The notes beneath the pieces were generated by a model. It saw nothing but the letters and a program-made list of their open reading frames with translations, was not told the origin of the DNA and did no database searches. Below, one piece after another: positions 20,523 to 36,798 of a stretch of 64,000 nucleotides of DNA. The stretch comes from an uncultured Acidobacteriota bacterium (GTDB lineage Bacteria; Acidobacteriota; Vicinamibacteria; Vicinamibacterales; Fen-181), in assembly GCA_963727765.1 (NCBI GenBank), contig CAVSGZ010000013.1:344491-408490 (forward strand), read 5' to 3'. Made by a program: the position numbers and the translations under genes. Within the stretch, counting starts at the first letter, position 1. Each line of letters opens with the position of its first letter.

Positions 20523-20610
20523 CGCCTGAAGCCGGATCATACGTCCCCCGGAGGGGTTGGGGCGGTTTTTCTCGAGCGCTGCCATCTGGCCGTCGTTCGC
20601 GCAGCGCCCC

Positions 20611-20638: not shown

Positions 20639-20720
20639 CTTTCCCCTCCCCCATCCGGGTGACCCATTTCGCGAAAGCCGGGTGATGTGCGATGCTGCGC
20701 CCAACTCGTAGAGTGGGCGC

Positions 20721-22091
20721 ATGTACACAGCAACCTACGACGTCACAATCAACACGCGACTGGTCTTCAAGGTCTACGCCGTCGTTGCGTGGGCTACGGG
20801 CGCGGTGCTCTACGGGTGGGGCGGACTGCTTTCCCCCCTGCCGCTTGCCGGCCTGCCCTCTGCCGACCACGTCGTCGTCCGGCTGGCCGGCTCGGTCCTT
20901 CTCTGCCTCGGGTTCCTCGCGTTCGCGATGGCGCGCACGCTCGACGAGGACGGCCGGCGCAAGGCCCTCGGGTGGTGGGCCGTCGGTCACGCCGTCGCAG
21001 CGCTTGGCGTCGGCGTCCAGTTGCTGGCCGTTGTGGGTTTCCACCGCCTCGGGTGGGGCGGCGCGGTGACGCTCGGATGGCTGACAGCCGGATCCTACCT
21101 CTTTGCCGATTTCTGGCTGTACCCGAACGGAATCCCCTGGGGCGGGCTTGGGATGCAGCGGCACGACTCCGTGCTCCAGGAGCTTCGGCAACCGAGCGTT
21201 CGTCGCCTTCGATCCACCTACGAGGAGAAGATCCGGGAGGTTGCGAGCCAGGAGGAGCGCAACCGCCTGGCGCGTGACCTCCACGATTCAATCAAGCAGC
21301 AGATCTTCGTCATGCACACTGCAGCGGCGACGGCGCAGGCGCGGTTCGACGCCGACCCGGCCGGGGCCCGGTCTGCCATCAACCAGGTGCGCAATGCCGC
21401 GCGGGAGGCGACGGCCGAGATGGAGGCGATGCTCGATCAGCTTCGCGCGTCGCCACTCGAGAACAGCGGGCTCATCGAGGCGCTCAAGAAGCAGTGCGAG
21501 GCGCTGCGCTTCCGGACCGGCGCCGATGTCCGGCTGGTGGTAAAGGACCTTCCGTCCAGCGAGACGCTCCCGGTCGGCACACAGCAGGTGCTCTTCCGGG
21601 TGGCGCAGGAGGCGCTCGCCAACGTCGGACGGCACGCCCGGCCGAAGCAGGTGTCGATAACGCTCGAGTCCACGCCAATCAGTGTCCAGTTGCGCGTGGA
21701 CGACGACGGTGTCGGTTTCGATCCTGCGCAGCCTCCGGCGGGCATGGGACTCGGGAACATGCGCTCGCGCGTCCAGACGCTGGGCGGAACTCTCGCGGTT
21801 ACCAGCCAGCCTGGTTCCGGAACGGTGGTCCGGGCGTTGATTCCGTATGCACCCGCGGATGACGTGGATCTCGGCGCGTACCGCCGTCGTGCGATCTTCT
21901 GGTCTGGCCACACGCTGGCTTGGGCGGCTGTGCTCGCCTGGGCCTGCACGCGCGAGAGGGATCCGTACTTCCTGCTTCTGAACGGTGCCTTCGTCCTCCT
22001 GATCTTCTCCCAAGCCGCGCTGGTGGTGGCCGCCTACTTCCGGGCACGAACAGGGTTGTCTCACCAGCCGGAGAAGGATGGTGCGCGATGA
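20721..22091 (+). CDS. sensor histidine kinase (HisKA_3 / NarL-partner type)
   Basis: ORF 20721..22091. Has hydrophobic N-terminal helices, the H-box EERNRLARDLHDSIKQQIF and the ATPase boxes QEALANVGRHA, DDDGVGFD and GMGLGNMRSR. An unusual hydrophobic C-terminal tail follows. Confidence 0.85.
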   Translation: MYTATYDVTINTRLVFKVYAVVAWATGAVLYGWGGLLSPLPLAGLPSADHVVVRLAGSVLLCLGFLAFAMARTLDEDGRRKALGWWAVGHAVAALGVGVQLLAVVGFHRLGWGGAVTLGWLTAGSYLFADFWLYPNGIPWGGLGMQRHDSVLQELRQPSVRRLRSTYEEKIREVASQEERNRLARDLHDSIKQQIFVMHTAAATAQARFDADPAGARSAINQVRNAAREATAEMEAMLDQLRASPLENSGLIEALKKQCEALRFRTGADVRLVVKDLPSSETLPVGTQQVLFRVAQEALANVGRHARPKQVSITLESTPISVQLRVDDDGVGFDPAQPPAGMGLGNMRSRVQTLGGTLAVTSQPGSGTVVRALIPYAPADDVDLGAYRRRAIFWSGHTLAWAAVLAWACTRERDPYFLLLNGAFVLLIFSQAALVVAAYFRARTGLSHQPEKDGAR

Positions 22092-22731: not shown

Positions 22732-22794
22732 CGGCGTTCGGCCGTGTCCTCGTCACGCGCGACACCGCCGAACGCCGAAAGCCGTAAGCCGAAC
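22732..22794. repeat. hairpin plus 28-bp tandem heptamer array (GCCGAAC GCCGAAA GCCGTAA GCCGAAC); probable bidirectional terminator
   Basis: CGGCGTTCGGC (22732..22742) is the inverted complement of GCCGAACGCCG (22767..22777). The array spans 22767..22794. It lies between the convergent response-regulator and BNR-paralog genes. Confidence 0.6.
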
Positions 22795-22799
22795 GCCTG

Positions 22800-25230
22800 C
22801 TATTTCTTGTTCTCCACCGCCATCGCATCCATCAGCCACACGCCGCGCCCGTGCGTCGCAATCGCAATCATCTTGTCGCGCGGCTGGATGTTCAGGTCGA
22901 GCACGAACACCTGCGGCAGGTTGCCGCCCAGCACGTTCCACGTCGCCCCGCCGTCGGTCGTGACGTAGACCCCCATGTCGGTCCCCACGTAGAGGATCTT
23001 CGGATTGGTGGGATCCTCGCGGATCACGTTCACCGGCCCGGCCGGGATGTTGCCCACGATGCTCTTGAACGTCTTGCCGAAGTCGGTCGACTTGTAGATG
23101 TAGGCCGCGAACTCGTCGTCTCGCTTCCCGTTCTGGGTCACGTAGACGGTGCCCTCGTTGAAGGCCGACGGCGTCACGCGCGAGATCCATTTGCGCTGCG
23201 GCAGGTTGGCCGTCAACTCGGTCCACGCCTTCCCGCCGTCCCTCGTGACCCACAGCCGCCCGTCGTCGGTGCCGGCGTAGAGAAGTCCGAAGCGCATCGG
23301 CGATTCGGCCAGCGCGAACAGCGTCTGGTACGGGATGTCGCCGAACATCTTCGGATCGTTGCCGGTCAGGTCCGGGCTGATCCGCTCCCAGGTGTCTCCC
23401 TGGTGCATCGAGCGGAAGACGTACTGGAGCCCGTGGTAGACGATGTCGGGGTCGTGCGGCGAGACGATGGTCGGCGCCATCCACTGGCCGCGCAGCGCCG
23501 GTTCGCCAGGCCCGACCTTCGGCATGATGTTGGCAACCTCGAACGGCGCCGAACCCCAGAGCGTGCGGCTCCGGGCTGGTTTGGTCACGTCGGCACGGTC
23601 GAGGTTCCCGTAATAGCTCGAGGCGTAGATGATGTCGTTGCTGCTCTTGTCGATCGCGTGCGTCGTCCCCTCGCCGCCGAGCGTTTCTTCGAACGCCTGC
23701 GTGGGGATCTTGTCGCGCCCCTTGCTCAGGTCGACGACGGCGCGGTAGCTGCCGTGGTCCTGCACCGAGCCGTAGACGCGCAACGGAGTTCCGTTGTCGA
23801 ACTCGATGTTGAAGAAGGTGGAGATCGGCAGGTTGTCGATGAACAGACGCCACGTCTTGCCGCCGTCGTACGAGATCACCACGCCGCCGTCGTTGCCGTC
23901 GATCAGGTTGTCGGGATTGGCCGGGTCGATCCAGAGCGCATGATGGTCTGTGTGGGGTCCGCGCAGGGCCTTGAACGTCCTGCCGCCGTCGGTGGACTGG
24001 TTGAGCATCAGCCCCTGGAAGTAGACGACGTTTTCGTTTGTCGGGTCGACGCGGATCTGCGAGAAGACCCATCCGTAGGTCGCCGCCGCCCCTTCCATGA
24101 ACGCGTTCGACTCGCTCACCTTCCGCCAGGTCTGTCCCTTGTTGTCTGACCGGTAGATCTCGGCGCCCCTGATCGTCCCCTCCTTCTGCCGGCCTGTACG
24201 AGTCCAGATCGCCCGGCTTGGCCTGGTGCGCGATCTCGTAGTCGTCCACGAAGGCATAGACGACGTTCGGGTTCGATCGCGCGATGTCGATGCCGATGCG
24301 GCCGCGGTGATCGGGCACCGGGAGGCCCTCGTTGATCGGTGTCCAGGTCTTGCCAGCGTCGATCGTCTTCCAGATGCCGCTGCCGGTATAGCCCTTCAAG
24401 GTGCGCGGGTCGTTCCACTTCTGCCGGATGCGCTGCCAGGTGGTCGCGTACAGGATATTCGGGTCGGTGGGGTCCATCACGAGGTCGTTCGCCCCGGTCT
24501 TCGCATCGACGTAGAGCACCTTCGTCCAGCTCTTGCCGCCGTCGGTCGTCTTGTAGACGCCGCGGTCTTCGTTGTCGGTCCACTCGTGTCCGCCGGCCGC
24601 GACATACACGATGTCCGGGTTGGTCGGGTGAATGATGATGCGTGGGATGGTGTGGGTCGAGGCGAGGCCCATGTGCTGCCACGTCTTGCCCGCATCGGTC
24701 GACTTGAAGATGCCGACGCCGGCGTTCGAGCTGCGGAAGATGTTGGCCTCACCGGTGCCGAACCAGACGATGTTCGGATCAGACGGCGCGACTTCGACGT
24801 TCCCGCCCTGCACCGATGCCGCCTGGTCGAACGCCGGTTCGAATGTGGTCCCCTCGTTCTCGGTTTTCCAGAGGCCGCCTGAGGCCGTTGCGACGTAGAT
24901 GATCCGGGTCTTGCCCTTGCGGTTGGCGACCGCCACGTCGACGACGCGACCGCTGATGCTGGTCGGCCCGAAGAACTGCCACTTCAGGTCTTTGAAGGGT
25001 GAGTTGCCGCGCATCGAGACGAACGAGTCCCAGGCCTTGAGGCGGAACGCCGCATCGGCCACGGAAGATGCGGGACCGGCGGTCGAGGCGGCGGCGGTTG
25101 CCGCGGCTTTCGGTGGTTGCGCCTTGGCGGCCGGCGCCTGGGCGGACACGGGTTGCGAAACGCTCAGTGCCAGGACAGCGAGGACGCCAAGCACTGGGGC
25201 CGTGCGGTTGAGGCAACGGAAGTTGGTCAT
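22800..25230 (-). pseudogene. secreted sortilin/VPS10-type BNR (Asp-box) repeat beta-propeller protein (paralog 2); frame broken by one extra nt at 24186..24195
   Basis: Signal peptide MTNFRCLNRTAPVLGVLAVLALSVSQPVSAQA from ATG 25230. Has Asp-boxes STDAGKTWQ, TTDGGKSWT, TIDAGKTWT, STDGGRTF, SYDGGKTW and TTDGGATW. The N-terminal part is ORF 22753..25341 up to ..GDLDSY, and the C-terminal part is ORF 22800..24257. The span is 2431 nt, which is 3n+1. Confidence 0.8.
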
Positions 25231-25265
25231 TGATAACCTCAGACAAGTTACTGACACGAAATGGC

Positions 25266-25307
25266 TTGTCAAACAACTACGAGCAGGGCGACACATATTG
25301 TATACAA
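25266..25307. promoter_or_regulatory. two candidate GntR/FadR-type operators
   Basis: TTGTCAAACAA (25266..25276) fits T.GT-N3-AC.A. TTGTATACAA (25298..25307) is a perfect 10-bp palindrome. Both lie in the AT-richer divergent spacer between BNR paralog 2 and the GntR gene. Confidence 0.35.
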
Positions 25308-25325
25308 AAACACGTGCAATACGAG

Positions 25326-26129
25326 ATGCAAAAGAGTACATTGGTGGACGTCATGACGCCCGCTCCTGGACAGGCCGTCGCCCGCCGGCCGGCCGCCCCG
25401 CACCGGCGCCCAGCGGCCACCAGCCGCAAGACCCGTCGCACTCCGCGCCGCGAGGTCACCTCGTCGGCGTATCAACGGTTGCGCGACCTGATTGTAACCG
25501 GTCGGCTGCCCCCCGGCGCTCCGCTTGTCGAGACCGAGCTTTCCGCGCGCCTCGGCGTGAGCCGGACGCCCGTGCGGGCCGCGCTGCAACGGCTGCAGCA
25601 GGAGGGGTTCGTCCACGTCGCGCGGGCCGGCTCGATGCTGCGCGCGGCGGTCGCGCCAGTGACGGCGGAAGACATGCGCGAGGTGTTCCTGATGGCGGGC
25701 GCGCTCGAGGCCTCAGCGGCCCGGCTGGCCACCGGCCTCGACGAGGCCCGGCGACGGGCGCTGGCCGACGAGATGGCGCGGCTCGCCGATGCCGTGGACG
25801 CCGCGACCTCGTCGCGGCCGCCGGAGATGCTCGACGCCCTCGGGGCGCACGCGCGCTTCCACCGCGCTTACACGGTGGCCGGCGCGGGACCCCGCCTGCT
25901 GGCCGAACTCGACGTGCTGCAGCCGCAGGCCGAGCGCTACGAGCGCATCTACGCAAGCGCCATCGCCCGCGCGCTCGATGACGGTTCCCGGGAGCACGCC
26001 GCCATCGTGGACGCGATCCGCGCCGGCGACAGCGACGGGGCCGAGAGCGCCGTGGAGCGCCACTGGCGGGCGTCTGCCGCGCGCTACGGCCAGGTGGTGA
26101 CGATTCTCGGCGAACGGGGAAACTGGTAG
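25326..26129 (+). CDS. GntR family transcriptional regulator (FCD/FadR subfamily)
   Basis: From ORF 25230..26129, with the start at ATG 25326 or alternatively 25353. Has the winged HTH YQRLRDLIVTGRLPPGAPLVETELSARLGVSRTPVRAALQRLQQEG and a helical FCD-like C-terminal domain. Confidence 0.85.
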   Translation: MQKSTLVDVMTPAPGQAVARRPAAPHRRPAATSRKTRRTPRREVTSSAYQRLRDLIVTGRLPPGAPLVETELSARLGVSRTPVRAALQRLQQEGFVHVARAGSMLRAAVAPVTAEDMREVFLMAGALEASAARLATGLDEARRRALADEMARLADAVDAATSSRPPEMLDALGAHARFHRAYTVAGAGPRLLAELDVLQPQAERYERIYASAIARALDDGSREHAAIVDAIRAGDSDGAESAVERHWRASAARYGQVVTILGERGNW

Positions 26130-26138
26130 GGGATTCAC

Positions 26139-27092
26139 GTGACCTGCGCAGCCTGGACCGACCCGGCGTTTCTCGGGATGCCCGACATCCAGGGGACCAT
26201 CCTGCGGATCGAGCGTTTCGCCATCCACGACGGCCCCGGCATCCGCACCACCGTGTTCCTCAAGGGCTGCCCGCTCCGCTGCGCATGGTGCCACAGCCCG
26301 GAGAGCCAGTCGACTCATCCCGAGTTCATGCCGCACAAGGACCGGTGCGTCCAGTGTGCCTCCTGCACGGACGCCTGCCCGTTCCACGCGGCCCCGCCGG
26401 CGGCGAGCGACGGCCCGGTGGCGCCCGCCGAGTGCACGACCTGCGGCGCCTGTGCCGAGGCGTGCCCGACGGGCGCGCGCGAGCTGGTCGGCCGGACCAT
26501 GAGCATCGAGGCCCTGATGGCCGAGATCGAGCGCGACCGCATCTTCTACGACGAGTCGAACGGCGGCGTCACCTTCTCGGGCGGCGAGCCGTTCATGCAG
26601 CCGGTCTTCCTGGCCAACATGGCCCGGTCCTGCCGCGCCGCCGGGATCCACGTCGCCATCGAGACCTGCGGCCACGCCGACACGCGCGCGCTGCTCGACG
26701 TCGCCGACGACACTGACCTTTTCCTGTTCGACCTGAAACTGCTCGACGATCGGCGTCACCGTGAATACACCGGCGCGTCCAACGTCCTCATTCTCCGCAA
26801 TCTCGAGCGGTTGATCGAGACGCCCGCCGAGATCCGCGTCCGCTTCCCGCTCATCCCGGGCGTCAACGACGACGACGGCAACGTGCGCGCCGTGGGCGCG
26901 CTGCTAGCCTCGCTCGGACTGACCCGGATCGACGTGCTGCCCTATCACCGCGCGGGGCTGGCCAAGTACGACCGGCTGCACCGCTCGTACCGACTTCCCG
27001 AGACCGAGCCGCCGACCGCCGATCGGCAGACCCACGTGGTCCGCCTCCTCGAGTCGTGCGGGCTCATCGTGCAACCAGGAGGAGCGTCATGA
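26139..27092 (+). CDS. glycyl-radical enzyme activating protein (radical SAM)
   Basis: ORF 26139..27092, with a GTG start preceded by AGGGGA and an alternative ATG at 26178. Has RFAIHDGPGIRTTVFLKGCPLRCAWC (CX3CX2C), the two ferredoxin-type motifs CVQCASCTDACP and CTTCGACAEACP, and GGVTFSGGEP. Its stop overlaps the GRE start. Confidence 0.9.
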   Translation: MTCAAWTDPAFLGMPDIQGTILRIERFAIHDGPGIRTTVFLKGCPLRCAWCHSPESQSTHPEFMPHKDRCVQCASCTDACPFHAAPPAASDGPVAPAECTTCGACAEACPTGARELVGRTMSIEALMAEIERDRIFYDESNGGVTFSGGEPFMQPVFLANMARSCRAAGIHVAIETCGHADTRALLDVADDTDLFLFDLKLLDDRRHREYTGASNVLILRNLERLIETPAEIRVRFPLIPGVNDDDGNVRAVGALLASLGLTRIDVLPYHRAGLAKYDRLHRSYRLPETEPPTADRQTHVVRLLESCGLIVQPGGAS

Positions 27093-29447
27093 CCGAGCGC
27101 GTAGCCAGGCTGCGCCAGGAGAGCCTCGACCGCCACCCCACGCTGTCGACCGAGCGCGCCGAGCTGATGACGGCGTTCTACCGTGAGGCCCCGTCTGCAT
27201 CGCTGCCGATCCTGCGGGCGCTCTCGCTGCAGTACCCTGATGGCGCGCAAGGCGCTGTGCATCATGCCGGGCGAGCTGATCGTCGGCGAGCGCGGACCCA
27301 CGCCCAAGGCGACGCCCACCTACCCCGAACTGTGCTGCCACACCCTCGAGGACCTCGACATCCTGGACTCGCGCGAGAAGATCTCCTTCGCCGTCGACGA
27401 CCACGCGCGCGCGGCGTACCGCGACACCGTCATCCCGTACTGGCGCGAGCGCTCGATGCGCCACCGGATGTTCCACGAGCTTCCCGACGCGTGGAAGCAC
27501 GCCTACGAGGCCGGCGTTTTCACCGAGTTCATGGAACAGCGCGCGCCCGGCCACACGGTGGCCGACGGGAAGATCTACGCGAAAGGCCTTGCCGGGCTGC
27601 AGGCGGACATCGACCGCGAGCTGGCCGCGCTCGACGACCTGCACGATCTCGACGCGTACGACAAGCGGCAGCAGCTCAAGGGCATGCGGATCGCCGCCGA
27701 CGCGGTGATCCACTTCGCGCGGCGCCACGCCGTGGAGGCCGCGCGCCACGCCGCCGCCGAGGCCGACCCGGTCCGGAAGGCAGAACTCGAGCAGATCGCC
27801 GCCACCTGCACGTGGGTCCCCGAACACCCGGCGCGCACCTTCTGGGAGGCGCTCCAGGCCTACTGGTTCATGCACCTCGGCGTGATCACCGAGCTGAACA
27901 CGTGGGACTCGTTCTGCCCGGGGCGGCTCGACCAGCACCTCTATCCCTACTACAAGCGCGAGATCGAAGCCGGCACGCTGACGCGCGAGCGGGCGAAGGA
28001 ACTCCTGCAGTGCTTCTGGGTGAAGTTCAACAACCAGCCGGCGCCGCCCAAGGTCGGTGTCACGGCGGCCGAGAGCGGCACCTACACGGATTTCGCCAAC
28101 ATCAGCAACGGCGGCCTGAAGGCCGACGGCAGCGATGGCGTCAACGAGGTCTCGTACCTCCTCCTCGAGGTCATCGACGAGATGCGCCTCCTGCAGCCAT
28201 CGTCGAACATCCAGCTGAGCAAGAAGAGCCCGGACCTCTTTCTCAAGAAGGCGTGCGAGGTCATCCGGAAGGGCTGGGGCCAGCCTTCGATCTTCAACGC
28301 CGACATGGTGGTGGCCGAGCTGGTGCGGCAGGGCAAGGCGGTCGAGGACGCGCGGTGCGGCGGGACGAGCGGCTGCGTCGAGGCGGGCGCGTTCGGCAAG
28401 GAAAGCTACATCCTCACCGGCTACTTCAACCTGCCGAAGGTCATCGAGATTACGCTCAACGACGGCTACGACCCGCGCACCGAGCGGCAGATCGGGCCGA
28501 AGACGGGCGACCCGTCCGCGTTCACGACGTTCGAAGAATTCCTCGACGCGTTCAGGCGCCAGCTCCAGCATTTCATCGACGTGAAGATCGCCGGCAGCCA
28601 AGTCATCGAGCGGATGTACGCGACGATGATGCCGGCGCCGTTCCTGTCGATCATCACCGACGACTGCATCAGAAACGGCCGCGACTACAACGCCGGCGGC
28701 GCCCGCTACAACACCCGCTACATCATGCCGGTCGGGCCGGGCACGGCGGCCGACAGCCTCTCGGCCATCAAGTACCACGTGTTCGATCACGGCCACGTCA
28801 CGATGCCCGCGCTCGTCAAGGCGGTGCGCGACGACTTCGTCGGCCACGAGAGCCTGCGCCAGCTGCTGCTCAACAAGACGCCCAAGTACGGCAACGACGA
28901 GGAGTACGCCGACGCGTTCGTGACGCTGCTGTGCGACGAGCTGTTCCACCGGATCGACGGGCGGCGGGGGCCGACCGGATCCACCTACCACGTCAACTAC
29001 CTGTCGACCACGTGCCACGTGTACTTCGGATCGGTGTGCGGCGCGACACCCGACGGCCGCCACGCCTGGGTGCCGGTGTCCGACGGCATCTCCCCCGCGC
29101 ACGGCGCGGACCGTCACGGCCCGACGGCGGTCATCAAGTCGGCCTCGCGCATGGATCACGCGCGCAGCGGCGGCACGCTGCTCAACCAGAAGTTCACGCC
29201 GGCGCTGCTCGAGGGGCAGGAGGGGATCGACCAGCTCGCCCACCTCGTGCGGGCGTATTTCAAGCTCGACGGGCACCACATCCAGTTCAACGTGGTGACG
29301 GCCGACACGCTTCGCGCCGCGCAGAAGGAACCGGAGAAGCACCGCGATCTGATCGTCCGCGTCGCCGGCTACAGCGACTATTTCTGCGATCTCACCAAGG
29401 GGCTGCAGGACGAGATCATCGAGAGGACCGAGCAGAAGGGGTTCTGA
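27089..29447 (+). pseudogene. hypD: glycyl radical enzyme, trans-4-hydroxy-L-proline dehydratase (HypD)-like; frame broken by one extra nt at 27236..27239
   Basis: ATG at 27089 (AGGAGG upstream) reads MTERVARLRQESLDRHPTLSTERAELMTAFY..ILRALSLQY, then shifts +1 into ORF 27183..29447. Carries EFMEQRAPGHTV, WVKFNNQPAPPKVG, GGTSGCVEAG (Cys/Glu), NAGGARYNTRYI and the glycyl site LIVRVAGYSDYF. The span is 2359 nt, which is 3n+1. The HypD assignment rests on recalled family motifs, not on a search. Confidence 0.8.
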
Positions 29448-29483
29448 CGCCGGCCGACGGCTGGGCGCGTATAATGCGCGTCC

Positions 29484-30809
29484 ATGAGACGCCTTTCGAA
29501 GTCGCTGTCGTTCGCCGCGGCTCTTACCCTCCTGGGTTCGGTCGCATTTCTCGCCACTGACGTCGGCGCGCAGCGCGCGCCAGCCCCCCAGGCCGCGTCC
29601 GAGAGCTGGCTGATTCGTCCGCAGCAGGTCTTCGACGCGACCAGCGAGCAGGCCCATCCCGGCTGGGTCGTCCTCGTCACCGGGAACACGATCGCCGCCG
29701 TCGGCCCGACGGCCTCGGTCACGCCGCCGGCCGGTGCGCACACGGTCGATCTGCCGGGCATGACACTGCTGCCCGGCCTCATCGAAGCCCACACGCACAT
29801 CTTCCTCCACGCCTACAACGAGACCACCTGGAACGACCAGGTGCTGAAGGAGTCGGAGGCCTACCGGACCATCGAAGCGGTGAAGCACTGCGAGACCACG
29901 CTGCTCGCCGGGTTCACCACGCTTCGCGATCTCGGCACCGAAGGCGCGGGCTTTGCCGACGTGGACGTGAAGCGCGCCATCAACGAGGGCCTGATCCCGG
30001 GGCCGCGCCTGTTCGTCGCCACGCGGGCCATCGTCGCAACCGCCAGTTACGGCCCTGGGCCGTTCGGTTTCGCGCCCAACGTGGACACGCCGAAGGGCGG
30101 GCAGGAAGTGAGCGGCGTCCCCGAGATGCTCAAGGCGGTCCGCGAGCAGATTGGCCACGGCGCCGACTGGGTGAAGCTGTACGCCGACTATCGCCGCGGC
30201 GCCGGTCCCTCGGTGCCGACCTTCAGCCTCGACGAGCTGAAGGCGGCGGTCGAGGAGGCCCACAGCGCGGGCAAGCCGGTCTCCGCGCACGCCTCCACCA
30301 CGGAAGGCATGCGGCGCGCGGTGGTGGCCGGCGTCGACACGATCGAGCACGGCTACGGCGGCACCGACGAGGTGTTCCGGATGATGGCCGAGCGCAACGT
30401 CGCGTTCTTCCCGACGCTGACAGCCGTCGAGGCCTCCGCCGAATACTCAGGCGCCTACAAGCGCGGCGGCGCGCCAACCCGCTCGATGGAGCAGGCAAAG
30501 CAGGCGTTCCAGCTCGCGATGAAGAACCACGTGGTCATCGGCCTCGGCGGCGACATCGGCGTCTACAACCACGGTGAGGACTACCGCGAGGCGGAGTGGC
30601 TCGTGCGCGACGGAATGACGCCCGTGCAGGCGCTGCTCGCGGCGACGGCCGTCAACGCGAAGGTGCTGCGCCAGGCCGACCGGATCGGCACGATCAGGCC
30701 AGGCCTGCTGGCCGATCTCGTGGCGGTCCCGGGCGACCCGACATCCGACATCACGACGCTCGAGAAGGTGGCGTTCGTGATGAAGGACGGTAAGATCTAC
30801 AAGCGATAG
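29484..30809 (+). CDS. amidohydrolase family protein (COG1228-like, possible Xaa-Pro dipeptidase), secreted
   Basis: ORF 29484..30809, with TATAAT at 29470..29475. Has the signal peptide [30 protein letters not shown], the metal-binding motif [13 protein letters not shown], and the later motifs VSAHA, DTIEHG and PGLLADLV. Confidence 0.8.
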
Positions 30810-30817
30810 AGATCGGG

Positions 30818-31519
30818 ATGTCCACTTCGCGCACGCTCGCCGACACCGCCTACGTTCGCCTTCGCGACAGCATCGTCACGCTCAGGCTGGCGCCGGGCGC
30901 CCGGCTCACCGAGGTCGAGCTCGGCCGGCGCCTCGGCATCAGCCGGACGCCTGTTCGTGCGGCGCTGCTCCGTCTTCACCAGGAGGGGCTGGTCGAGACG
31001 CGCGGCGTGAAGCGGTCCGGCCGCGTCACGGTGGCCCCAATGACCGCCGCCGACATGCGCGAGCTGTTCCTCATGGTCGGCGCGCTCGACGGCGTGGCGG
31101 CGCGGCTGGCCGCCGAATTGCCCGAGACGCCGCGGCGGGCCGTGGCCGGCGAAGCCCAGGCGATCAACGCGCGCCTCCGGGCCCTCTCCGGGACAGGGGC
31201 CGCCGACATCCGCGCCGCGCAGGAGCTGGATATCGCATTCCACCGCTGTTACGAACAGGCGGCGTCGGGGCCGCGGCTGCTCGCGAAGCTGGCCGCCCTG
31301 CACGCCCGACGGGAGCGCTACGTCCGCGTGTACACGGAGGCGCTCTTCCACACGCACCACGAGCAGGAGTCGCTCGACGAGCACGGCGCCATCGTGGCGG
31401 CCATCTCGCGCGGAGACGCCGAGGCGGCCGAACGGCACGCCGTGTTCAATCACCGGAACGCGCTCGAGCGGTACCGGCGAATCGCCGCGAGCCGCGGCGA
31501 TCGCGAGGGTTGGAATTGA
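30818..31519 (+). CDS. GntR family transcriptional regulator (FCD subfamily)
   Basis: ORF 30818..31519. Has the HTH YVRLRDSIVTLRLAPGARLTEVELGRRLGISRTPVRAALLRLHQEG. It is paralogous in layout to 25326..26129 and lies 8 nt after the amidohydrolase stop. Confidence 0.85.
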   Translation: MSTSRTLADTAYVRLRDSIVTLRLAPGARLTEVELGRRLGISRTPVRAALLRLHQEGLVETRGVKRSGRVTVAPMTAADMRELFLMVGALDGVAARLAAELPETPRRAVAGEAQAINARLRALSGTGAADIRAAQELDIAFHRCYEQAASGPRLLAKLAALHARRERYVRVYTEALFHTHHEQESLDEHGAIVAAISRGDAEAAERHAVFNHRNALERYRRIAASRGDREGWN

Positions 31520-31544
31520 CCACGTCACTCGACGGGAGACGATT

Positions 31545-32729
31545 ATGTCGCTCATTCAAGAGAAGATCGCCCAGGCCGCACTCATCCTGAGGGAACTCGA
31601 TATCCCCTGCTGGCTCACCTTCGTGCGCGAGACGGGCATGAACGGCGATCCCGTGATGCCGTTTCTCGCGCCGTCCCAGCTCACCTGGCACAGCGCCCTC
31701 CTCGTGATGGCCGACGGAGAGGCGTACGCCATCGTCGGCGAGTTCGAGCGCAAGACGATGGAGGACACCGGGGCCTACCGGCAGGTCGAGGGCCACGTGC
31801 AGGGCGCGAAGGCGCCGCTGCTCGAGTTCCTGCGGAGCCGGAACCCGGCATCGATCGCCATCAACTACTCGACCGACAGCGAGGTCTGCGACGGCCTGAC
31901 GCACGGGATGTTCCTCACGCTGCAGTCCTGGCTCGCCGAGATCGGGTTCGAGAAGCGCCTCGTGTCCGCCGAGCGGATCGTCTCGACGCTGCGCGCGCGG
32001 AAGACCGACGAGGAACTGGGGCGCATGAAGACCGCCATCCTCCTGACCGAGGAGATCTTCGGAAAGGTCGGCCGGTTCCTGGCGCCGGGCGTCACCGAGC
32101 GCGACGTCGCGGGCTACGTGGCGGCCCAGGTCAAGGACGCCGGCCTCGAGGTCGCGTGGGAGCCCGGCACCTGCCCGGCCGTCTTCACGGGGCCCGACAC
32201 GGCGGGCGCGCACTACTCGCCCACCGGCCGCCAGGTCGAGCGCGGCCACATCGTCAACATGGACTTCGGCATCAAGTACCGCGACTACTGCGCCGACCTG
32301 CAGCGGACCTGGTACGTCCTCCGCGACGGTGAATCGGTGGCGCCCGCCGAGGTGCAGCGCGGCTTCGACACGATCGTGCGGGCGATCGAGGAGTCGCGAA
32401 AGGCCCTCAAGCCCGGCGTGACCGGACAGGCGGTCGACGAGGTGGCCAGGACGCTCATTACCGGCGCCGGCTACGCCGAATTCCCGCACGCGCTCGGCCA
32501 CCAGGTCGGCCGCTACGCCCACGACGGCACGGCGATCCTCGGCCCGGCGTGGGAGAAGTACGCCCGCCGGCCGTTCGTGCCGGTCGAGGCCGGCATGGTG
32601 TTCACGCTCGAGCCGCGCTTGACAGTGCCCGGCTACGGCGTCGCGACGGTCGAGGAAATGGTGGTGGTCACGCCGACCGGGGCGGAGTTCATGTCGGGGC
32701 CGCAGACCGAGCTGATTCTCATCCGCTAG
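31545..32729 (+). CDS. M24 family metallopeptidase (Xaa-Pro peptidase-like), cytoplasmic
   Basis: ORF 31545..32729, with no signal peptide. Has the ligand blocks NMDFGIKYRDYCADLQRT, HALGHQVG, FTLEP and TVEEMVV. Confidence 0.85.
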   Translation: MSLIQEKIAQAALILRELDIPCWLTFVRETGMNGDPVMPFLAPSQLTWHSALLVMADGEAYAIVGEFERKTMEDTGAYRQVEGHVQGAKAPLLEFLRSRNPASIAINYSTDSEVCDGLTHGMFLTLQSWLAEIGFEKRLVSAERIVSTLRARKTDEELGRMKTAILLTEEIFGKVGRFLAPGVTERDVAGYVAAQVKDAGLEVAWEPGTCPAVFTGPDTAGAHYSPTGRQVERGHIVNMDFGIKYRDYCADLQRTWYVLRDGESVAPAEVQRGFDTIVRAIEESRKALKPGVTGQAVDEVARTLITGAGYAEFPHALGHQVGRYAHDGTAILGPAWEKYARRPFVPVEAGMVFTLEPRLTVPGYGVATVEEMVVVTPTGAEFMSGPQTELILIR

Positions 32730-32785
32730 GCGCACCTGTCGCCGGCCGGATGCAACCTTCACGCGCCGCGCTGCGTATTGCAGGT

Positions 32786-32977
32786 ATGTGGCTCGTGAAG
32801 ACATCCGGCCTCATCGCCATCACGTGCGCGGTGCTTGCCGTGTCGGCGATCTGGTTGGTGCTGAGTGACCCGATCGCCGTGGCAACGGCCGTGCAGGCGG
32901 GCGACCTGTCTTCGGCCTACACCCTCGTTTCCCACGCCTTTCTCGAAGCCCTCCGGACGCTGCTGAAGTACCTCTAG
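32786..32977 (+). CDS. small hydrophobic protein (hypothetical)
   Basis: Internal ATG of ORF 32549..32977. MWLVKTSGLIAITCAVLAVSAIWLVLSDPIAVATAV.. contains one clear TM helix. No other support. Confidence 0.3.
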   Translation: MWLVKTSGLIAITCAVLAVSAIWLVLSDPIAVATAVQAGDLSSAYTLVSHAFLEALRTLLKYL

Positions 32978-33023
32978 GGCCACCGCGCCCCGGGGTCCGC
33001 CGGCCCGTGATAGCATCCTCGCC

Positions 33024-34617
33024 ATGGTGACCAGACCTTCCCGTCGCGTGCTGCTGGCAGCCCTCGCCGTTGCCCTCGCCCTCGCCGGCGCGACGTCGGT
33101 GCCGGCCCAGCCGGCACCGGCTGTCGGTGCGCTTCCCGCCGACTTCGATGCCTACGTCCAGCGGGTCATGAAGTCGTTCGATGTTCCCGGCCTCGCGGTC
33201 GCCGTCGTGAAGGACAACGGTGTGGTGCTGGCCAGGGGATACGGCGTCCGCAAGATGGGCGACCCTGTACCTGGTCGACGCGAAGACGCTCTTCGGCATC
33301 GCGTCGAACACCAAGGTGTTCACGGCCACGGCGCTCGGACTGCTGGTCGAGCAGGGCAAGCTCCAGTGGGACGCGCCGGTCGTCAACTACCTGCCCTGGT
33401 TCCAGCTCTACGACGCCTGGGTCACGCGCGAGCTGACCATCCGCGACCTGCTGGTCCACCGAAGCGGCCTCGGCCTGGGCGCGGGCGACCTGCTCTGGTG
33501 GCCTCCCAGCACGTACAACCGGAGCGAGATTGCCGCGCGCCTGCGGTACATCAGGCCGGCGACGAGCTTCCGGAGCGCGTATGCCTACGACAACGTGCTC
33601 TATCTCGTGGCAGGCGAAGTGATCGAAGCCGTCAGCGGCCAGTCATGGGAGGATTTCGTGTCCTCGCGCATCCTCGCGCGAGTGGGCATGACGAACAGCA
33701 ACGTCCGGCACTCGTCGGCGGTCTCCGGCGGTAACGTCTCGACGACGCACGCCGTCGTCGACGGAAAGGTGCAACCGATTTCGCCGTTCGTCAGCGACAA
33801 CACGAACCCGGCGGGCGGCATCAACTCCTGCGCCGAGGACATGGCGAAGTGGCTCAAGCTGCTGCTCGCCGAGGGTCAGCTGTCGGATGGATCCCGGCTG
33901 TTCGGCGCTGCGACCTGGCGGCAGATCTCGACGCCGGTGACGCCCGAGCCGAACAACCCGCCGCCTCCTGATCTGCCGGCTCTCCGGTCGAACTTCCGGG
34001 GTTACGCCCTCGGCCTCGAAGCCCGCGACTTCAAGGGATACAAGGTGCTCACGCACACGGGCGGCCTTCCAGGCTACGTCTCCCGCGTGCTGATAATCCC
34101 GGATCTCAAGCTCGGCGTCGCGGTGCTGACCAACCAGGAGTCCGGCGAGGCGTTCGACGCGATCGCCTACGCCGTGGCCGACGCCTACGCGGGCGGCGCC
34201 CGCACCGACTGGCTGGCCGGCTACGAGAAGATCCACGCGCGGACGGCTGCGGCCGTGGCCGAGGCCGACCGCAAGACAACGTCAGCGCGCAACAGCGAGT
34301 CGAAACCGTCGCTGCCGCTGGCCGCCTACGCCGGCACGTATCGCGACGCGTGGTACGGCGACGTCGCCATCGCGGTCGAGGACGGGAAGCTCGTCATCCG
34401 GTTCACGAAGACGCCCGCGCTTGTCGGCGAGCTCCAGCACTGGCAGCACGACACGTTCGTCGCCAGGTGGCGCGATCGCGAGTTGCGCGCCGACGCGTTC
34501 GTCACCTTCGCCCTCAACCCGGACGGCACGATCGACCAAGCGAAGATGCGGGCGGTGTCGCCGTCCACCGATTTCAGTTTCGATTTTCAGGATTTGCTGC
34601 TCAGGCCCGTGAAGTAA
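33024..34617 (+). pseudogene. beta-lactamase-fold serine hydrolase (class C / PBP-like), secreted; frame broken by one extra nt at 33264..33273
   Basis: ATG at 33024 reads MVTRPSRRVLLAALAVALALAGATSVPAQ..VVKDNGVVLARGYGVRKMGDPVP, then shifts +1 into ORF 33220..34617. That part reads VDAKTLFGIASNTKVFTA (SxxK nucleophile motif) ..YDNVLY... The span is 1594 nt, which is 3n+1. Confidence 0.8.
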
Positions 34618-34653: not shown

Positions 34654-36798
34654 ATGAAGCCTTATCTGCTCGTCGCCATCACAGTTGCCATGGCCATGCT
34701 CTCCGCCCAGCCGAATGCCCAGAAACCGACCTATCCCGTCGCGCACAAGGGCCCCCAGGTTGACACCTTCTTCGGTGTCAAGGTGGCCGATCCCTACCGG
34801 TGGCTCGAGGACTCCGACTCGACCCAGACCCGCGCCTGGATCGACGCCGAGAACACGGTCACCTTCGACTACCTGTCGAAGATCCCCGAGCGGGCAGCGA
34901 TCAAGGCGCGCCTGACGAAACTGTGGGATTACGAGCGCTTCGGCACGCCGTCGCGCGAGGGAGCCTGGTACATCTTCTCGAAGAACAGCGGTCTGCAGCC
35001 GCAGGCCGTCGTTTACAAGACGAAGTCGCTCTCGGCGCCGCCCGAGGTGCTGATCGATCCCAACACGCTGTCGAAGGACGGGACGGTGGCGCTGGGCGGC
35101 GTCTCGTTCACCGAGGACGGCCGCTACATGGCCTACTCGCTCGCGGCGAGCGGGTCCGACTGGATCGAGTGGCACGTGCGCGAGATCGCGACGTCGAAGG
35201 ACCTGCCGGATCTCGTGAAGTGGTCCAAGTTCAGCGGCGCCTCCTGGCTCAAGGACGGCTCCGGCTTCTACTACAGCCGCTACGACGAGCCGAAGGGCGA
35301 GGCGCTCCAGGCGCTCAACAAGAACCAGAAGGTCTTCTTCCACAAGCTGGGCACGCTGCAGGAGAAGGACGCGCTGGTCTACGAGCGGCCGGACAAGCCC
35401 GACTGGGGCTTCGGGGCGGATGTCACCGAGGACGGCCGCTTTCTGCTCATCACGCAGACCGAGGGGACCGACAACCGCAACCGCGTCTTCGTCCGCGACC
35501 TCGGCAAGCCCGGCAGCGCGATCCAGCCGTTCCTCGACGCTTTCGACGCCAGCTACTCGGTGGTCGGCAACGACGGCGAGACGTTCTACGTGCTGACCAA
35601 CAAGAACGCGCCGAGGTTCAGGCTGGTGGCCATCACGCTGCAGCATCCGGCGGAAGCCGCGTGGAAGACGCTCGTCGCCGAGGCGCCCGGCAAGGCCGTC
35701 CTCGAGAGCGTGGTGATGGTGAACAATCAGTTCGTCACGCTCTGGATGACCGACGCCCACCACGCGCTGCGCGTCTACGGTCTCGACGGCAAGCCCGGCG
35801 CGGAGGTCGCGCTGCCGACGCTCGGCTCGGTCGCCGGGCCGACCGGCCGGCGGTCGCAGAGGGAGATGTTCTACTCGTTCGGCTCGTTCCTCTATCCGAC
35901 CACCGTCTACCACTACGACTTCGCCACGGCGAAGAGCGAGGTCTTCAAGAAGCCGGCGCTCGCGTTCGATCCGGGCCAGTACGAGACGATCCAGGTCTTC
36001 TACCCCTCGAAGGACGGGACGAAGATCCCGATGTTCCTCACCTACAAGAAGGGGCTCAAGAAAGACGGCTCGAACCCGACGCTGCTCTACGGCTATGGCG
36101 GCTTCAACATCGCGACCATGCCGGCCTTCTCGCCCGCGGCGGCCGGCTGGCTGGAGATGGGCGGCGTCTACGCGGTGGCCAACCTGCGCGGCGGCGGTGA
36201 GTACGGCCAGGCCTGGTACGACGCGGGCCGGCTGCAGCACAAGCAGAACGTGTTCGACGACTTCATCGCGGCGGCCGAGTACCTGATTCGCGAGAAGTAC
36301 ACGTCGACGCCGAAGCTGGCCATCCAGGGCGGCAGCAACGGCGGCCTGCTCGTCGGCGCGTGCCTCACCGAGCGGCCCGATCTGTTCGGCGCGGCGCTGC
36401 CGGCGGTCGGCGTGATGGACATGCTCCGGTTCGACAAGTTCACGATCGGCTGGGCGTGGCGGTCCGACTACGGCGAGCCGGACAAGAACAAGACGGACTT
36501 CGACACGGTGATGAAGTACTCGCCGCTCCACAACATCAAGCCCGGCGCGAAGTACCCGGCCACCTTCGTGACGACGGCCGACCACGACGACCGCGTGGTG
36601 CCGGCGCACAGCTTCAAGTTCACGGCCACGCTCCAGGCCGCGCAGGCCGGGTCCGCGCCGATCCTGATCCGGATCGAGACCAAGGCCGGGCACGGGGCGG
36701 GCAAGCCGACCGACAAGATCATCGAGGAGCGCGCGGACATGTACGGCTTCCTCGTGCGCGAGTTGAAGATGACGCTGCCGGCAACGTTCGGAAAGTAG
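34654..36798 (+). CDS. prolyl oligopeptidase (S9A)
   Basis: ORF 34654..36798. Has a signal-like N-terminus, DPYRWLED, a propeller region, and the catalytic triad contexts IQGGSNGGLLVGA (Ser), TTADHDDRVVPAHS (Asp) and ETKAGHGAGKP (His). Confidence 0.92.
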   Translation: MKPYLLVAITVAMAMLSAQPNAQKPTYPVAHKGPQVDTFFGVKVADPYRWLEDSDSTQTRAWIDAENTVTFDYLSKIPERAAIKARLTKLWDYERFGTPSREGAWYIFSKNSGLQPQAVVYKTKSLSAPPEVLIDPNTLSKDGTVALGGVSFTEDGRYMAYSLAASGSDWIEWHVREIATSKDLPDLVKWSKFSGASWLKDGSGFYYSRYDEPKGEALQALNKNQKVFFHKLGTLQEKDALVYERPDKPDWGFGADVTEDGRFLLITQTEGTDNRNRVFVRDLGKPGSAIQPFLDAFDASYSVVGNDGETFYVLTNKNAPRFRLVAITLQHPAEAAWKTLVAEAPGKAVLESVVMVNNQFVTLWMTDAHHALRVYGLDGKPGAEVALPTLGSVAGPTGRRSQREMFYSFGSFLYPTTVYHYDFATAKSEVFKKPALAFDPGQYETIQVFYPSKDGTKIPMFLTYKKGLKKDGSNPTLLYGYGGFNIATMPAFSPAAAGWLEMGGVYAVANLRGGGEYGQAWYDAGRLQHKQNVFDDFIAAAEYLIREKYTSTPKLAIQGGSNGGLLVGACLTERPDLFGAALPAVGVMDMLRFDKFTIGWAWRSDYGEPDKNKTDFDTVMKYSPLHNIKPGAKYPATFVTTADHDDRVVPAHSFKFTATLQAAQAGSAPILIRIETKAGHGAGKPTDKIIEERADMYGFLVRELKMTLPATFGK

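What the first reader, a model, noticed from the sequence alone, without database searches (positions are those of the whole stretch)
25230..32729. Oxygen-sensitive glycyl-radical hydroxyproline-dehydratase-like module in a secreted-peptidase locus
The gene order is GntR(FCD), GRE activase, HypD-like GRE, secreted COG1228-type amidohydrolase, second GntR(FCD), M24 peptidase, with 4-37 nt spacers or overlaps. The GRE carries the Cys/Glu loop GGTSGCVEAG and the glycyl motif RVAGYS. The activase has the CX3CX2C motif plus two ferredoxin-type clusters. COG1228-type amidohydrolases and M24 enzymes both include characterised Xaa-Pro dipeptidases. The module therefore reads as: release of Pro/Hyp from dipeptides, then radical dehydration of trans-4-hydroxyproline. 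The neighbouring genes (DinB, PEP-CTERM, rubrerythrin, L-aspartate oxidase) suggest a soil organism usually regarded as aerobic, so a strictly anaerobic radical enzyme here is unexpected. No P5C reductase gene is adjacent.
Basis: partly seen in the sequence, partly recalled or inferred. Interest (0 to 1): 0.65.

Follow-up and report, generated by a model that had tools for sequence, protein, structure and literature searches.

The report
Anaerobic hydroxyproline dehydratase operon, Acidobacteriota
This is a genuine but ordinary copy of the known oxygen-sensitive enzyme that removes water from hydroxyproline, sitting with its activating enzyme, two regulators and proline-cutting peptidases in a wetland Acidobacteriota genome; the break in its reading frame is an assembly error.

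Summary
The glycyl radical enzyme is an orthologue of trans-4-hydroxy-L-proline dehydratase (HypD). It passes NCBI's HypD equivalog model (1279 bits, cut-off 1100). It scores 1035 bits against the solved C. difficile HypD, against 510 for the next class. It keeps all 15 catalytic and pocket residues.

One thing was missed: in the window the gene is split by one extra C at 27235-27237. Three independent short-read assemblies with otherwise identical sequence lack that C. Neighbouring genes carry the same kind of one-base insertion, so this is an assembly artefact and the gene is intact.

The cluster is syntenic in related fen and freshwater Acidobacteriota MAGs. HypD orthologues from 14 Acidobacteriota species group together. 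The sequence occurs in sediment, wetland and peat metagenomes. The "unexpected in an aerobe" argument is therefore not supported.

An M24 Xaa-Pro peptidase and a GntR/FCD regulator recur next to HypD across phyla. The secreted amidohydrolase does not recur, and its nearest characterised relative is an arginine carboxypeptidase, not a prolidase. Adjacent proC is found only in Clostridium-type loci.

Verdict: a correct call, a new member of a known kind, of modest interest.

The parts
25298..25307 (.). Perfect palindrome TTGTATACAA in the 122-bp divergent intergenic region. Candidate GntR operator, about 46 nt upstream of the GntR1 start.
   Evidence: This is the only GTATAC in the 64 kb. GTATAC-cored sites also lie just upstream of the GntR1 orthologue in L001 (904), L002 (8041, 8089) and L003 (8083, 8108). 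Operator function is inferred.
25353..26129 (+). GntR1: a GntR-family regulator with an FCD ligand domain (FadR subfamily). The mechanical ORF starts at TTG 25230; ATG 25353 is the likely start.
   Evidence: Pfam GntR 1.1e-17 and FCD 3.5e-13. The ATG is conserved in the L001 alignment. Orthologues at 75%, 68% and 53% identity sit upstream of the activase in L001-L003.
26139..27092 (+). Glycyl-radical-enzyme activase (radical SAM, CX3CX2C plus two ferredoxin-type CX2CX2CX3CP clusters). Its stop overlaps the HypD start (ATGA).
   Evidence: TIGR02494 scores 338 bits (cut-off 174). The best equivalog is NF043069, HypD activase, at 350 bits, below its 425 cut-off. Motifs were read in the translation.
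27089..29447 (+). hypD, trans-4-hydroxy-L-proline dehydratase (785 aa once the extra base is removed). An RBS aggagg lies at 27077-27082.
   Evidence: NF043068 scores 1279 bits (cut-off 1100). PDB 6vxc scores 1035 bits against 510 for glycerol dehydratase. All 15 of 15 active-site residues are kept. It is 94% identical to an intact orthologue in L001.
27235..27237 (+). CCC run holding one extra C that breaks the hypD frame. This is an assembly artefact.
   Evidence: L001-L003 have CC here. Contigs of runs X1, X2 and X4, with 0 other differences over 240-1015 nt, all leave out one base at 27235.
29484..30809 (+). Secreted binuclear-metal amidohydrolase (COG1228-type). Its substrate is not established. 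TATAAT lies 9-10 nt upstream of its ATG.
   Evidence: Amidohydro_1 6e-38. NF051886 scores 303 bits, below the 500 cut-off. The best PDB match is 3mtw, L-Arg carboxypeptidase, at 209 bits; the prolidases 3mkv and 3feq score 151 and 123. An orthologue is present in L001 only. The signal peptide was read from the N-terminus. TATAAT is conserved in L001.
30818..31519 (+). GntR2: a second GntR+FCD regulator, about 50% identical to GntR1, always paired with an M24 peptidase gene in the close relatives.
   Evidence: Pfam. Orthologues sit next to an M24 gene in L001, L002 and L003.
31545..32729 (+). Cytoplasmic M24 metallopeptidase of the Xaa-Pro peptidase (M24B) type.
   Evidence: Peptidase_M24 1.3e-43. 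The best PDB matches are YpdF 5cnx at 115 bits and D. radiodurans proline dipeptidase 5cdl at 109 bits. Orthologues at 88% and 71% identity are in L001 and L002.
22753..25230 (-). Divergently transcribed secreted BNR/Sortilin-Vps10 repeat protein, frame-broken at about 24195 in the window. Conserved neighbour of the cluster; function unknown.
   Evidence: Pfam Sortilin-Vps10 and BNR. It is one continuous ORF in L002. A contig leaves out one base at 24195. It is syntenic in L001-L003 and has more distant homologues (35-44% identity) near HypD in L018, L019, L049.
34654..36798 (+). Prolyl oligopeptidase (S9A) with a signal-peptide-like N-terminus. Downstream conserved neighbour.
   Evidence: Peptidase_S9_N 3e-129 and Peptidase_S9 3e-64. 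An orthologue at 86% identity is at the same position in L001, and one at 48% is in L003.

Best explanation
The locus is an anaerobic hydroxyproline-utilisation operon of an uncultured wetland or freshwater Acidobacteriota bacterium.

Shown:
- The GRE is an orthologue of HypD with a complete HypD active site.
- It is translationally coupled to its own radical-SAM activase.
- The cluster is conserved in related MAGs.
- The frame break is an assembly error.

Inferred mechanism:
1. Under anoxia the activase uses SAM and a reduced [4Fe-4S] cluster to place a radical on Gly760.
2. The radical passes to Cys429, which abstracts the C5 hydrogen of trans-4-hydroxy-L-proline. Asp273, His155 and Glu431 promote loss of the 4-OH, giving P5C. 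This follows the mechanism proposed for C. difficile HypD (PMC7077986).
3. Free Hyp is supplied by proline-specific peptidases encoded around the operon. These are the cytoplasmic M24B peptidase in the cluster, further M24 enzymes at 15070-16455 and 19173-21284, and a secreted prolyl oligopeptidase at 34654-36798. They would act on Hyp/Pro-rich peptides such as plant cell-wall glycoproteins or collagen.
4. P5C is then taken by a housekeeping P5C reductase or dehydrogenase encoded elsewhere.
5. GntR1 probably represses its own operon at the TTGTATACAA palindrome until an effector binds (Hyp or a related imino acid). GntR2 probably controls the peptidase part.

The role of the secreted amidohydrolase is the weakest link.
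For: HypD identity:
- NF043068 equivalog 1279 bits against a cut-off of 1100; other GRE equivalog models all fall below their cut-offs.
- 6vxc 1035 bits. Glycerol dehydratase scores 510, HpyG 487, CutC 483, HpzG 460 and HplG 405.
- F152, R156, H160, W277, D278, K326, S334, D339, F340, C434, V435, E436, Y450, T645 and G765 are all conserved. They are conserved across 80 related loci, whereas glycerol dehydratase differs at 10 of 15.
- In an NJ tree the protein sits inside the HypD clade.

Activase: ATGA overlap; TIGR02494 above its cut-off; best equivalog is the HypD activase.

Intactness.

Synteny: L001 has Sortilin-GntR1-activase-HypD-amidohydrolase-GntR2-M24-beta-lactamase family-POP. L002 and L003 have variants of this order.

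Recurrence near HypD: an M24 peptidase in 10 other loci, and GntR+FCD in 14 loci counted together (11 plus L001, L002 and L028; Pfam check).

Operator.

Habitat: the runs holding the sequence are freshwater-sediment, soil, wetland and peat metagenomes.
Against: - No activity, expression or effector data exist. No RNA run holds the gene.
- The activase is below the HypD-activase equivalog cut-off (350 against 425).
- The amidohydrolase is closer to an Arg carboxypeptidase than to proven prolidases, and it is absent from L002.
- The M24 subfamily is unresolved; no equivalog cut-off is met.
- No Hyp or peptide transporter and no P5C-consuming enzyme were found in the window.
- The fate of P5C and the physiological role (carbon/nitrogen source or electron sink) are unknown.
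- The tree has no support values.
Confidence: 0.78

Rival explanations
1. The hypD gene is a real pseudogene in this strain. The +1 insertion is biological, and the module is decaying in an organism that no longer needs it.
For: As given, the window carries the extra C. Several neighbouring genes are also frame-broken, which could be read as regional decay.
Against: - Three independent short-read assemblies with identical flanks lack the base.
- The other breaks are also single-base insertions relative to short-read contigs or relatives. That is the pattern of consensus errors.
- There is no other stop or indel in 785 codons.
- GC3 is 0.94, and the protein is 94% identical to the intact L001 orthologue.
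Confidence: 0.06
2. The GRE acts on a different hydroxyproline-type or diol substrate. Candidates are N-methyl-hydroxyproline (HpyG/HpzG), trans-4-hydroxy-D-proline (HplG), or glycerol, propanediol or choline.
For: All are CXE-loop GRE eliminases of similar length and share 400-510 bits with the query.
Against: - The score to HypD is twice that to any other class.
- Only the HypD equivalog cut-off is passed.
- Every residue that contacts the Hyp carboxylate, amine and hydroxyl is conserved, and glycerol dehydratase differs at 10 of 15.
Confidence: 0.03
3. The peptidase genes are only neighbours. The unit activase-HypD (+GntR1) works on free Hyp taken up from the environment. The amidohydrolase, GntR2 and M24 form an unrelated unit, for example a C-terminal Arg/Lys carboxypeptidase or a general aminopeptidase.
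For: - The best characterised relative of the amidohydrolase is Cc2672, an L-Arg carboxypeptidase.
- The amidohydrolase is missing in L002.
- A TATAAT box upstream of the amidohydrolase, and a TTGACA...TTATAC pair upstream of GntR2 in L002, suggest a separate promoter.
- Most HypD loci (about 70 of 81) have no M24 gene within 6 kb.
Against: - M24 is the commonest non-activase neighbour of HypD and recurs in five phyla.
- GntR2-M24 stays next to HypD in L001-L003 although other genes are rearranged.
- The window holds at least five further proline-specific or related peptidases.
Confidence: 0.25

Closest known systems
Clostridioides difficile HypD (trans-4-hydroxy-L-proline dehydratase, PDB 6VXC/6VXE) with its activase HypD-AE
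   Same: - 55% identity over 781 aligned residues.
- Same length.
- Identical Gly loop, CVE Cys loop and all Hyp-binding and acid-base residues.
- Activase gene immediately upstream.
   Different: - Host is a high-G+C environmental Acidobacteriota bacterium, not a gut Firmicute.
- There is no adjacent P5C reductase. In this dataset adjacent proC is seen only in Clostridium-type loci.
- It is flanked by GntR/FCD regulators and peptidases. Eight other loci, mostly Bacillota, carry a sigma-54 type activator instead.
Other hydroxyproline-acting GREs: HpyG (8ID1), HpzG (8IOF), HplG (7VUA)
   Same: Same fold; HpyG and HpzG share the CXE loop and abstract H from C5 (review PMC13450708).
   Different: They score only 405-487 bits against 1035 for HypD. 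The window protein passes the HypD equivalog model only.
COG1228 amidohydrolases: Cc2672 L-Arg carboxypeptidase (3MTW) and the prolidases Sgx9260c/b (3MKV, 3FEQ)
   Same: Amidohydro_1 fold. An HxH motif and the other metal-ligand motifs are visible in the sequence. Similar length.
   Different: - It is nearer to the Arg carboxypeptidase (209 bits) than to the proven prolidases (151 and 123 bits).
- It is below the NCBIfam Xaa-Pro dipeptidase cut-off (303 against 500).
- It carries a signal peptide.
GntR/FadR-subfamily repressor HypR of the Sinorhizobium meliloti aerobic hydroxyproline cluster (recalled from memory, not tested here)
   Same: A GntR HTH plus FCD domain regulator encoded with hydroxyproline catabolic genes. 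The predicted operator is a short GT...AC palindrome.
   Different: No sequence comparison was made. The regulated pathway here is the anaerobic radical route, not the epimerase/oxidase route.

Membership tests
HypD (trans-4-hydroxy-L-proline dehydratase, glycyl radical enzyme) | Passes the curated equivalog HMM NF043068 over its full length | tested here: met
   1279 bits against a cut-off of 1100, profile positions 1-783 of 784.
HypD (trans-4-hydroxy-L-proline dehydratase, glycyl radical enzyme) | Glycyl radical site (RVxG) and Cys loop with the CXE motif | tested here: met
   G760 in RVAGYS aligns with G765. C429-V430-E431 in GGTSGCVEAG aligns with C434-V435-E436.
HypD (trans-4-hydroxy-L-proline dehydratase, glycyl radical enzyme) | HypD-specific substrate and acid-base residues: His160, Asp278, Asp339, Ser334, Phe340, Tyr450, Thr645 (plus Phe152, Arg156, Trp277, Lys326) | tested here: met
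   All are identical (residue list from PMC7077986). They are conserved in 80 related loci, and glycerol dehydratase differs at 10 of 15.
HypD (trans-4-hydroxy-L-proline dehydratase, glycyl radical enzyme) | Closer to characterised HypD than to any other characterised GRE class | tested here: met
   6vxc scores 1035 bits against 510 or less for GD, HpyG, CutC, HpzG, PD, IslA, HplG, HPAD, BSS and PFL. The NJ tree agrees.
HypD (trans-4-hydroxy-L-proline dehydratase, glycyl radical enzyme) | Uninterrupted reading frame | tested here: inconclusive
   The frame is broken in the window by one extra C at 27235-27237. It is intact in contigs of three independent runs and in L001-L003. Raw reads of the source assembly were not available.
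HypD (trans-4-hydroxy-L-proline dehydratase, glycyl radical enzyme) | Dedicated radical-SAM activase encoded alongside | tested here: met
   The activase is at 26139-27092 with an ATGA overlap. TIGR02494 scores 338 against a cut-off of 174. The HypD-activase equivalog NF043069 is the best hit, but at 350 it is below its 425 cut-off.
HypD (trans-4-hydroxy-L-proline dehydratase, glycyl radical enzyme) | Catalyses Hyp to P5C under anoxic conditions | not testable with these tools
   This needs an anaerobic enzyme assay.
COG1228 Xaa-Pro dipeptidase (amidohydrolase-superfamily prolidase) | Passes the Xaa-Pro dipeptidase equivalog model | tested here: not met
   NF051886 scores 303 bits against a cut-off of 500.
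COG1228 Xaa-Pro dipeptidase (amidohydrolase-superfamily prolidase) | Nearest characterised relative is a prolidase | tested here: not met
   The best match is Cc2672, L-Arg carboxypeptidase 3mtw, at 209 bits. Prolidases 3mkv and 3feq score 151 and 123 bits.
M24B Xaa-Pro peptidase (prolidase / aminopeptidase P group) | Peptidase_M24 pita-bread domain, with closest solved relatives in the Xaa-Pro peptidase group | tested here: met
   PF00557 1.3e-43. Top PDB hits are YpdF, proline dipeptidases and aminopeptidase P.
M24B Xaa-Pro peptidase (prolidase / aminopeptidase P group) | Passes a curated equivalog model (PepQ, PepP or YpdF) | tested here: not met
   PRK09795 scores 117 against 393. PepQ_Arch scores 82 against 630. 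PRK10879 scores 34 against 465. The subfamily and substrate are unresolved.
GntR family, FadR (FCD) subfamily regulators | N-terminal GntR winged helix plus C-terminal FCD domain | tested here: met
   Both regulators hit PF00392 and PF07729 above the gathering scores.

The most novel reading that the evidence does not exclude
Wetland and peat Acidobacteriota, together with Chloroflexota, Planctomycetota and Gemmatimonadota, carry a conserved regulon. A GntR/FCD sensor couples secreted and cytoplasmic proline-specific peptidases, and a conserved BNR/Sortilin-like secreted protein, to the radical enzyme HypD. This would let them mine hydroxyproline from plant cell-wall glycoproteins or collagen in anoxic soil. 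It would be an undescribed environmental role for an enzyme so far discussed mainly for gut Clostridia.
Probability: 0.4. Interest if true: 0.45.

Novelty: new member of a known kind. Interest (0 to 1): 0.3.

Why it matters
HypD has mostly been studied as a gut-microbiome and C. difficile enzyme. Here a complete, well-conserved copy sits in uncultured Acidobacteriota from fens and freshwater sediments, inside a cluster of proline-specific peptidases. That points to anaerobic recycling of hydroxyproline-rich organic nitrogen in waterlogged soils. It also offers a testable regulator-operator pair.

No paper in the searchable library links HypD to Acidobacteria, soil or prolidases in bacteria. 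Nevertheless, standard annotation pipelines would name this gene correctly, so the finding adds ecology and context rather than new biochemistry.

The practical lesson is that the window has single-base insertion errors that split real genes.

Tried and rejected
- RNA evidence: no public RNA run holds the gene.\n- Exact-sequence look-up of the amidohydrolase: not on record, so the source contig and sample could not be named.\n- Sigma-70 promoter and terminator scan of 24800-33400: no promoter, and one terminator-like site inside hypD, below the number expected by chance. Uninformative for this phylum.\n- Inverted-repeat search in the short intergenic spacers: only G+C-rich low-quality palindromes inside the GntR1 5' region. 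The AT-rich TTGTATACAA was found by eye and then tested.\n- PDB search with the intact BNR/Sortilin orthologue: only weak repeat-level hits, E about 1e-5, so no function could be assigned.\n- Programmed +1 frameshifting at TAC-CCT-G: rejected, because identical-sequence contigs simply lack the base.\n- Recent horizontal transfer into an aerobe: rejected. G+C is 0.67-0.70 throughout, GC3 is 0.94, and the Acidobacteriota sequences group together.\n- Structure prediction and the large protein searches were not run, because a 55%-identical solved structure and a passing equivalog model already settle the family.\n- The class-level taxonomy of the organism could not be resolved with the tools left.

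Full report
**What is in the sequence.** Between 25230 and 32729 six genes lie head to tail on the + strand.

- Pfam gives GntR+FCD for 25230-26129.
- It gives Radical_SAM plus 4Fe-4S ferredoxin domains for 26139-27092.
- It gives PFL-like plus Gly_radical for the GRE.
- It gives Amidohydro_1 for 29484-30809, GntR+FCD for 30818-31519 and Peptidase_M24 for 31545-32729.

The spacers are 9, -4, 36, 8 and 25 nt. The quoted motifs can all be read in the translations: GGTSGCVEAG, RVAGYS, CPLRCAWC, and two CX2CX2CX3CP clusters.

The GRE start is ATG 27089. It overlaps the activase stop (ATGA) and follows an aggagg ribosome-binding site. After 49 codons the protein continues in another frame.

- Removing one C from the run CCC at 27235-27237 restores a 785-aa protein.
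- The orthologous genes of three related genomes have CC at this point.
- Contigs assembled from three independent public runs (X1, X2, X4) have no other difference over 240-1015 nt, and all leave out exactly one base at 27235. It was the only indel seen in the 19.7 kb laid, at the low and patchy depth of these runs.
- Neighbouring genes show the same defect. The BNR/Sortilin gene is split near 24195, where a contig of a related strain lacks one base.
- The beta-lactamase-family gene is split at 33270/33271. There a short-read contig reads GTACTGG instead of GTACCTGG, and the two halves are in one frame in L001 and L002.
- A second Sortilin paralogue changes frame at 17384-17416.

Repeated single-base insertions in conserved genes are the signature of consensus errors. 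I conclude that hypD is intact in the organism. Confirmation needs the raw reads of the source assembly.

**What the GRE is.**

- The corrected protein passes NCBI's equivalog model for trans-4-hydroxy-L-proline dehydratase (NF043068, 1279 bits, cut-off 1100, full length). It fails every other GRE equivalog model.
- Against all solved structures, C. difficile HypD (6vxc) scores 1035 bits. The next class, glycerol dehydratase, scores 510.
- The other hydroxyproline-acting GREs score lower: HpyG 487, HpzG 460 and HplG 405. Choline TMA-lyase scores 483.
- The structure paper lists the residues that bind Hyp and carry out the acid-base chemistry (PMC7077986). All fifteen are identical in the window protein. 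These are F152, R156, H160, W277, D278, K326, S334, D339, F340, C434, V435, E436, Y450, T645 and G765.
- They are also conserved across 80 related loci, whereas glycerol dehydratase differs at 10 of the 15.
- In a neighbour-joining tree rooted on glycerol dehydratase, the window protein sits inside one tight clade with C. difficile HypD (no support values).

**The activase.** It passes the GRE-activase subfamily model. Its best equivalog is the HypD activase, although it falls below that model's cut-off (350 against 425).

**Whose genome it is, and whether the enzyme is out of place.** A scan of one genome per species found at least 596 genomes with a relative.

- The best matches are Acidobacteriota MAGs from a fen (L001, 94% identity; L003, 72%) and from a Danish survey (L002, 85%).
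- Fourteen of the best 80 loci are Acidobacteriota (Terriglobia, Bryobacteraceae, Acidobacteriaceae and unclassified). The rest are mostly Anaerolineae/Chloroflexota, Bacillota, Gemmatimonadota and Planctomycetota.
- The Acidobacteriota sequences group together in the tree.
- The cluster has the same G+C (0.67-0.70) and GC3 (0.9 or more) as the rest of the window.
- Runs that hold the sequence are freshwater-sediment, soil, wetland and peat metagenomes.
- The window also encodes rubrerythrin.

Nothing in the window marks an obligate aerobe. The argument that a strictly anaerobic enzyme is unexpected here rests on a phylum-level stereotype and is not supported. The class of the organism could not be resolved.

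**The surroundings.**

- L001 has the same order as the window: BNR/Sortilin (divergent), GntR1, activase, HypD, amidohydrolase, GntR2, M24, beta-lactamase family, prolyl oligopeptidase, DUF2339.
- L002 lacks the amidohydrolase.
- L003 has GntR2-like, an aminopeptidase-P-type M24, GntR1, activase, HypD, Sortilin and a prolyl oligopeptidase.
- The window itself is rich in proline-specific peptidases: M24+AMP_N at 15070-16455, M24+Creatinase_N at 19173-21284, prolyl oligopeptidase at 34654-36798 and a large S9 peptidase at 50656-53685. It also holds a gamma-glutamyltranspeptidase.

I clustered ORFs within 6 kb of HypD in all 81 loci. After the activase, the commonest neighbours are:

- M24 peptidases, in 10 loci plus the window, from Acidobacteriota, Chloroflexota, Planctomycetota, Bacillota and candidate division B38;
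- GntR+FCD regulators, in 11 loci plus L001, L002 and L028, or 14 in all;
- Liv-type ABC transporters, in 10 loci;
- sigma-54 activators, in 8 loci;
- P5C reductase, in only 4 loci, all Clostridium-type.

The HypD-M24-GntR association is thus a recurring arrangement, and the absence of an adjacent proC is the rule rather than an oddity.

**The weak link.** The amidohydrolase has a signal-peptide-like N-terminus and the metal-ligand motifs of the family.

- Its best characterised relative is the Caulobacter L-Arg carboxypeptidase Cc2672 (209 bits). The experimentally proven COG1228 prolidases score 151 and 123 bits.
- It is well below the NCBIfam Xaa-Pro dipeptidase cut-off (303 against 500).
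- An orthologue accompanies HypD only in L001.

Calling it a Xaa-Pro dipeptidase is therefore a guess.

**The M24 peptidase in the cluster.** It belongs to the Xaa-Pro peptidase group by its nearest solved relatives (YpdF, proline dipeptidases, aminopeptidase P). It meets no equivalog cut-off.

**Regulation (inferred).**

- GntR1 most likely starts at ATG 25353 and the divergent Sortilin gene at 25230, which leaves a 122-bp AT-richer intergenic region.
- In its middle lies the perfect palindrome TTGTATACAA (25298-25307). Its GTATAC core occurs nowhere else in the 64 kb.
- GTATAC sites also sit just upstream of the GntR1 orthologue in related loci. This is the only such site in L001, both sites in L002, and two of four in L003.
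- This fits the short GT...AC palindromes bound by GntR-family proteins (established knowledge). I propose it as the GntR1 operator.
- A TATAAT box lies 9-10 nt before the amidohydrolase start and is conserved in L001. A TTGACA...TTATAC pair lies before GntR2 in L002. Both hint at a second promoter for the peptidase unit.

**How it most likely works.**

- Shown: a complete HypD with its activase, conserved in the lineage.
- Inferred: under anoxia the activase generates the glycyl radical. HypD dehydrates trans-4-hydroxy-L-proline to P5C by the mechanism proposed for the C. difficile enzyme (PMC7077986). Hyp is released from Hyp/Pro-rich peptides by the surrounding peptidases. P5C is reduced to proline or oxidised to glutamate by enzymes encoded elsewhere. 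The two GntR/FCD proteins sense an imino acid or peptide and de-repress the genes.

**Comparison and verdict.** The locus is a member of the HypD family by every sequence-level criterion. It differs from the Clostridial paradigm in host, regulator type, peptidase linkage and lack of an adjacent proC.

I found no paper in the searchable library that links HypD to Acidobacteria, soil or bacterial prolidases. A 2026 review still frames Hyp-utilising GREs mainly in the human microbiome (PMC13450708).

It is a new member of a known kind. The ecological reading is of moderate interest and there is no new biochemistry. Interest 0.3.

Noticed in passing
window 24195; 33270-33271; 17384-17416: Three more genes near the finding are split by frame changes: the BNR/Sortilin gene, a beta-lactamase-family/DUF3471 gene and a second Sortilin paralogue. 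At the first two sites, short-read contigs or relatives lack one base that the window has. This suggests systematic single-base insertion errors in this assembly.
   Followed up: partly
window 15070-16455 (-), 19173-21284 (-), 34654-36798 (+), 50656-53685 (-), 44946-47333 (+): The window is unusually rich in proline-specific or peptide-processing enzymes: an aminopeptidase-P-type M24, a Creatinase_N+M24 prolidase type, a secreted prolyl oligopeptidase, a 1009-aa S9 peptidase and a gamma-glutamyltranspeptidase. Together they form a peptide-degradation neighbourhood around hypD.
   Followed up: partly
window 22753-25230 (-); L001 about 213-611, L002 4546-6798, L003 12632-14977; more distant homologues in L018, L019, L049: A secreted BNR/Sortilin-Vps10 repeat protein of about 800 aa lies next to the HypD cluster in the close Acidobacteriota relatives L001-L003. 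More distant homologues (35-44% identity) lie a few kb from HypD in two other Acidobacteriota MAGs and one Gemmatimonadota MAG. It has no informative solved relative and its function is unknown.
   Followed up: partly
window 29466-29471; L001 about 5130: A TATAAT box lies 9-10 nt upstream of the amidohydrolase start codon and is conserved in L001. In L002 a TTGACA...TTATAC pair sits directly before the GntR2 ATG. This may indicate internal promoters giving leaderless or near-leaderless mRNAs.
   Followed up: no
L012 5290-8659; L021 10-2072: In a Desulfosporosinus genome and a Bacillota MAG, a second, distant GRE (35-37% identical to HypD) with its own activase lies immediately upstream of the HypD pair. 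Its substrate was not examined.
   Followed up: no
window 42692-43522 (-): An ORF with two homing-endonuclease-associated HNH_repeat domains lies in a stretch (about 40-43.7 kb) with lower G+C (0.64) and few recognisable genes. It may be a mobile-element remnant.
   Followed up: no
L044 4359-5165; L048, L056, L079: P5C reductase directly follows hypD only in the four Clostridium-type loci of the 80 examined. Eight other loci, mostly Bacillota, instead carry a PAS/sigma-54 activator next to hypD.
   Followed up: yes
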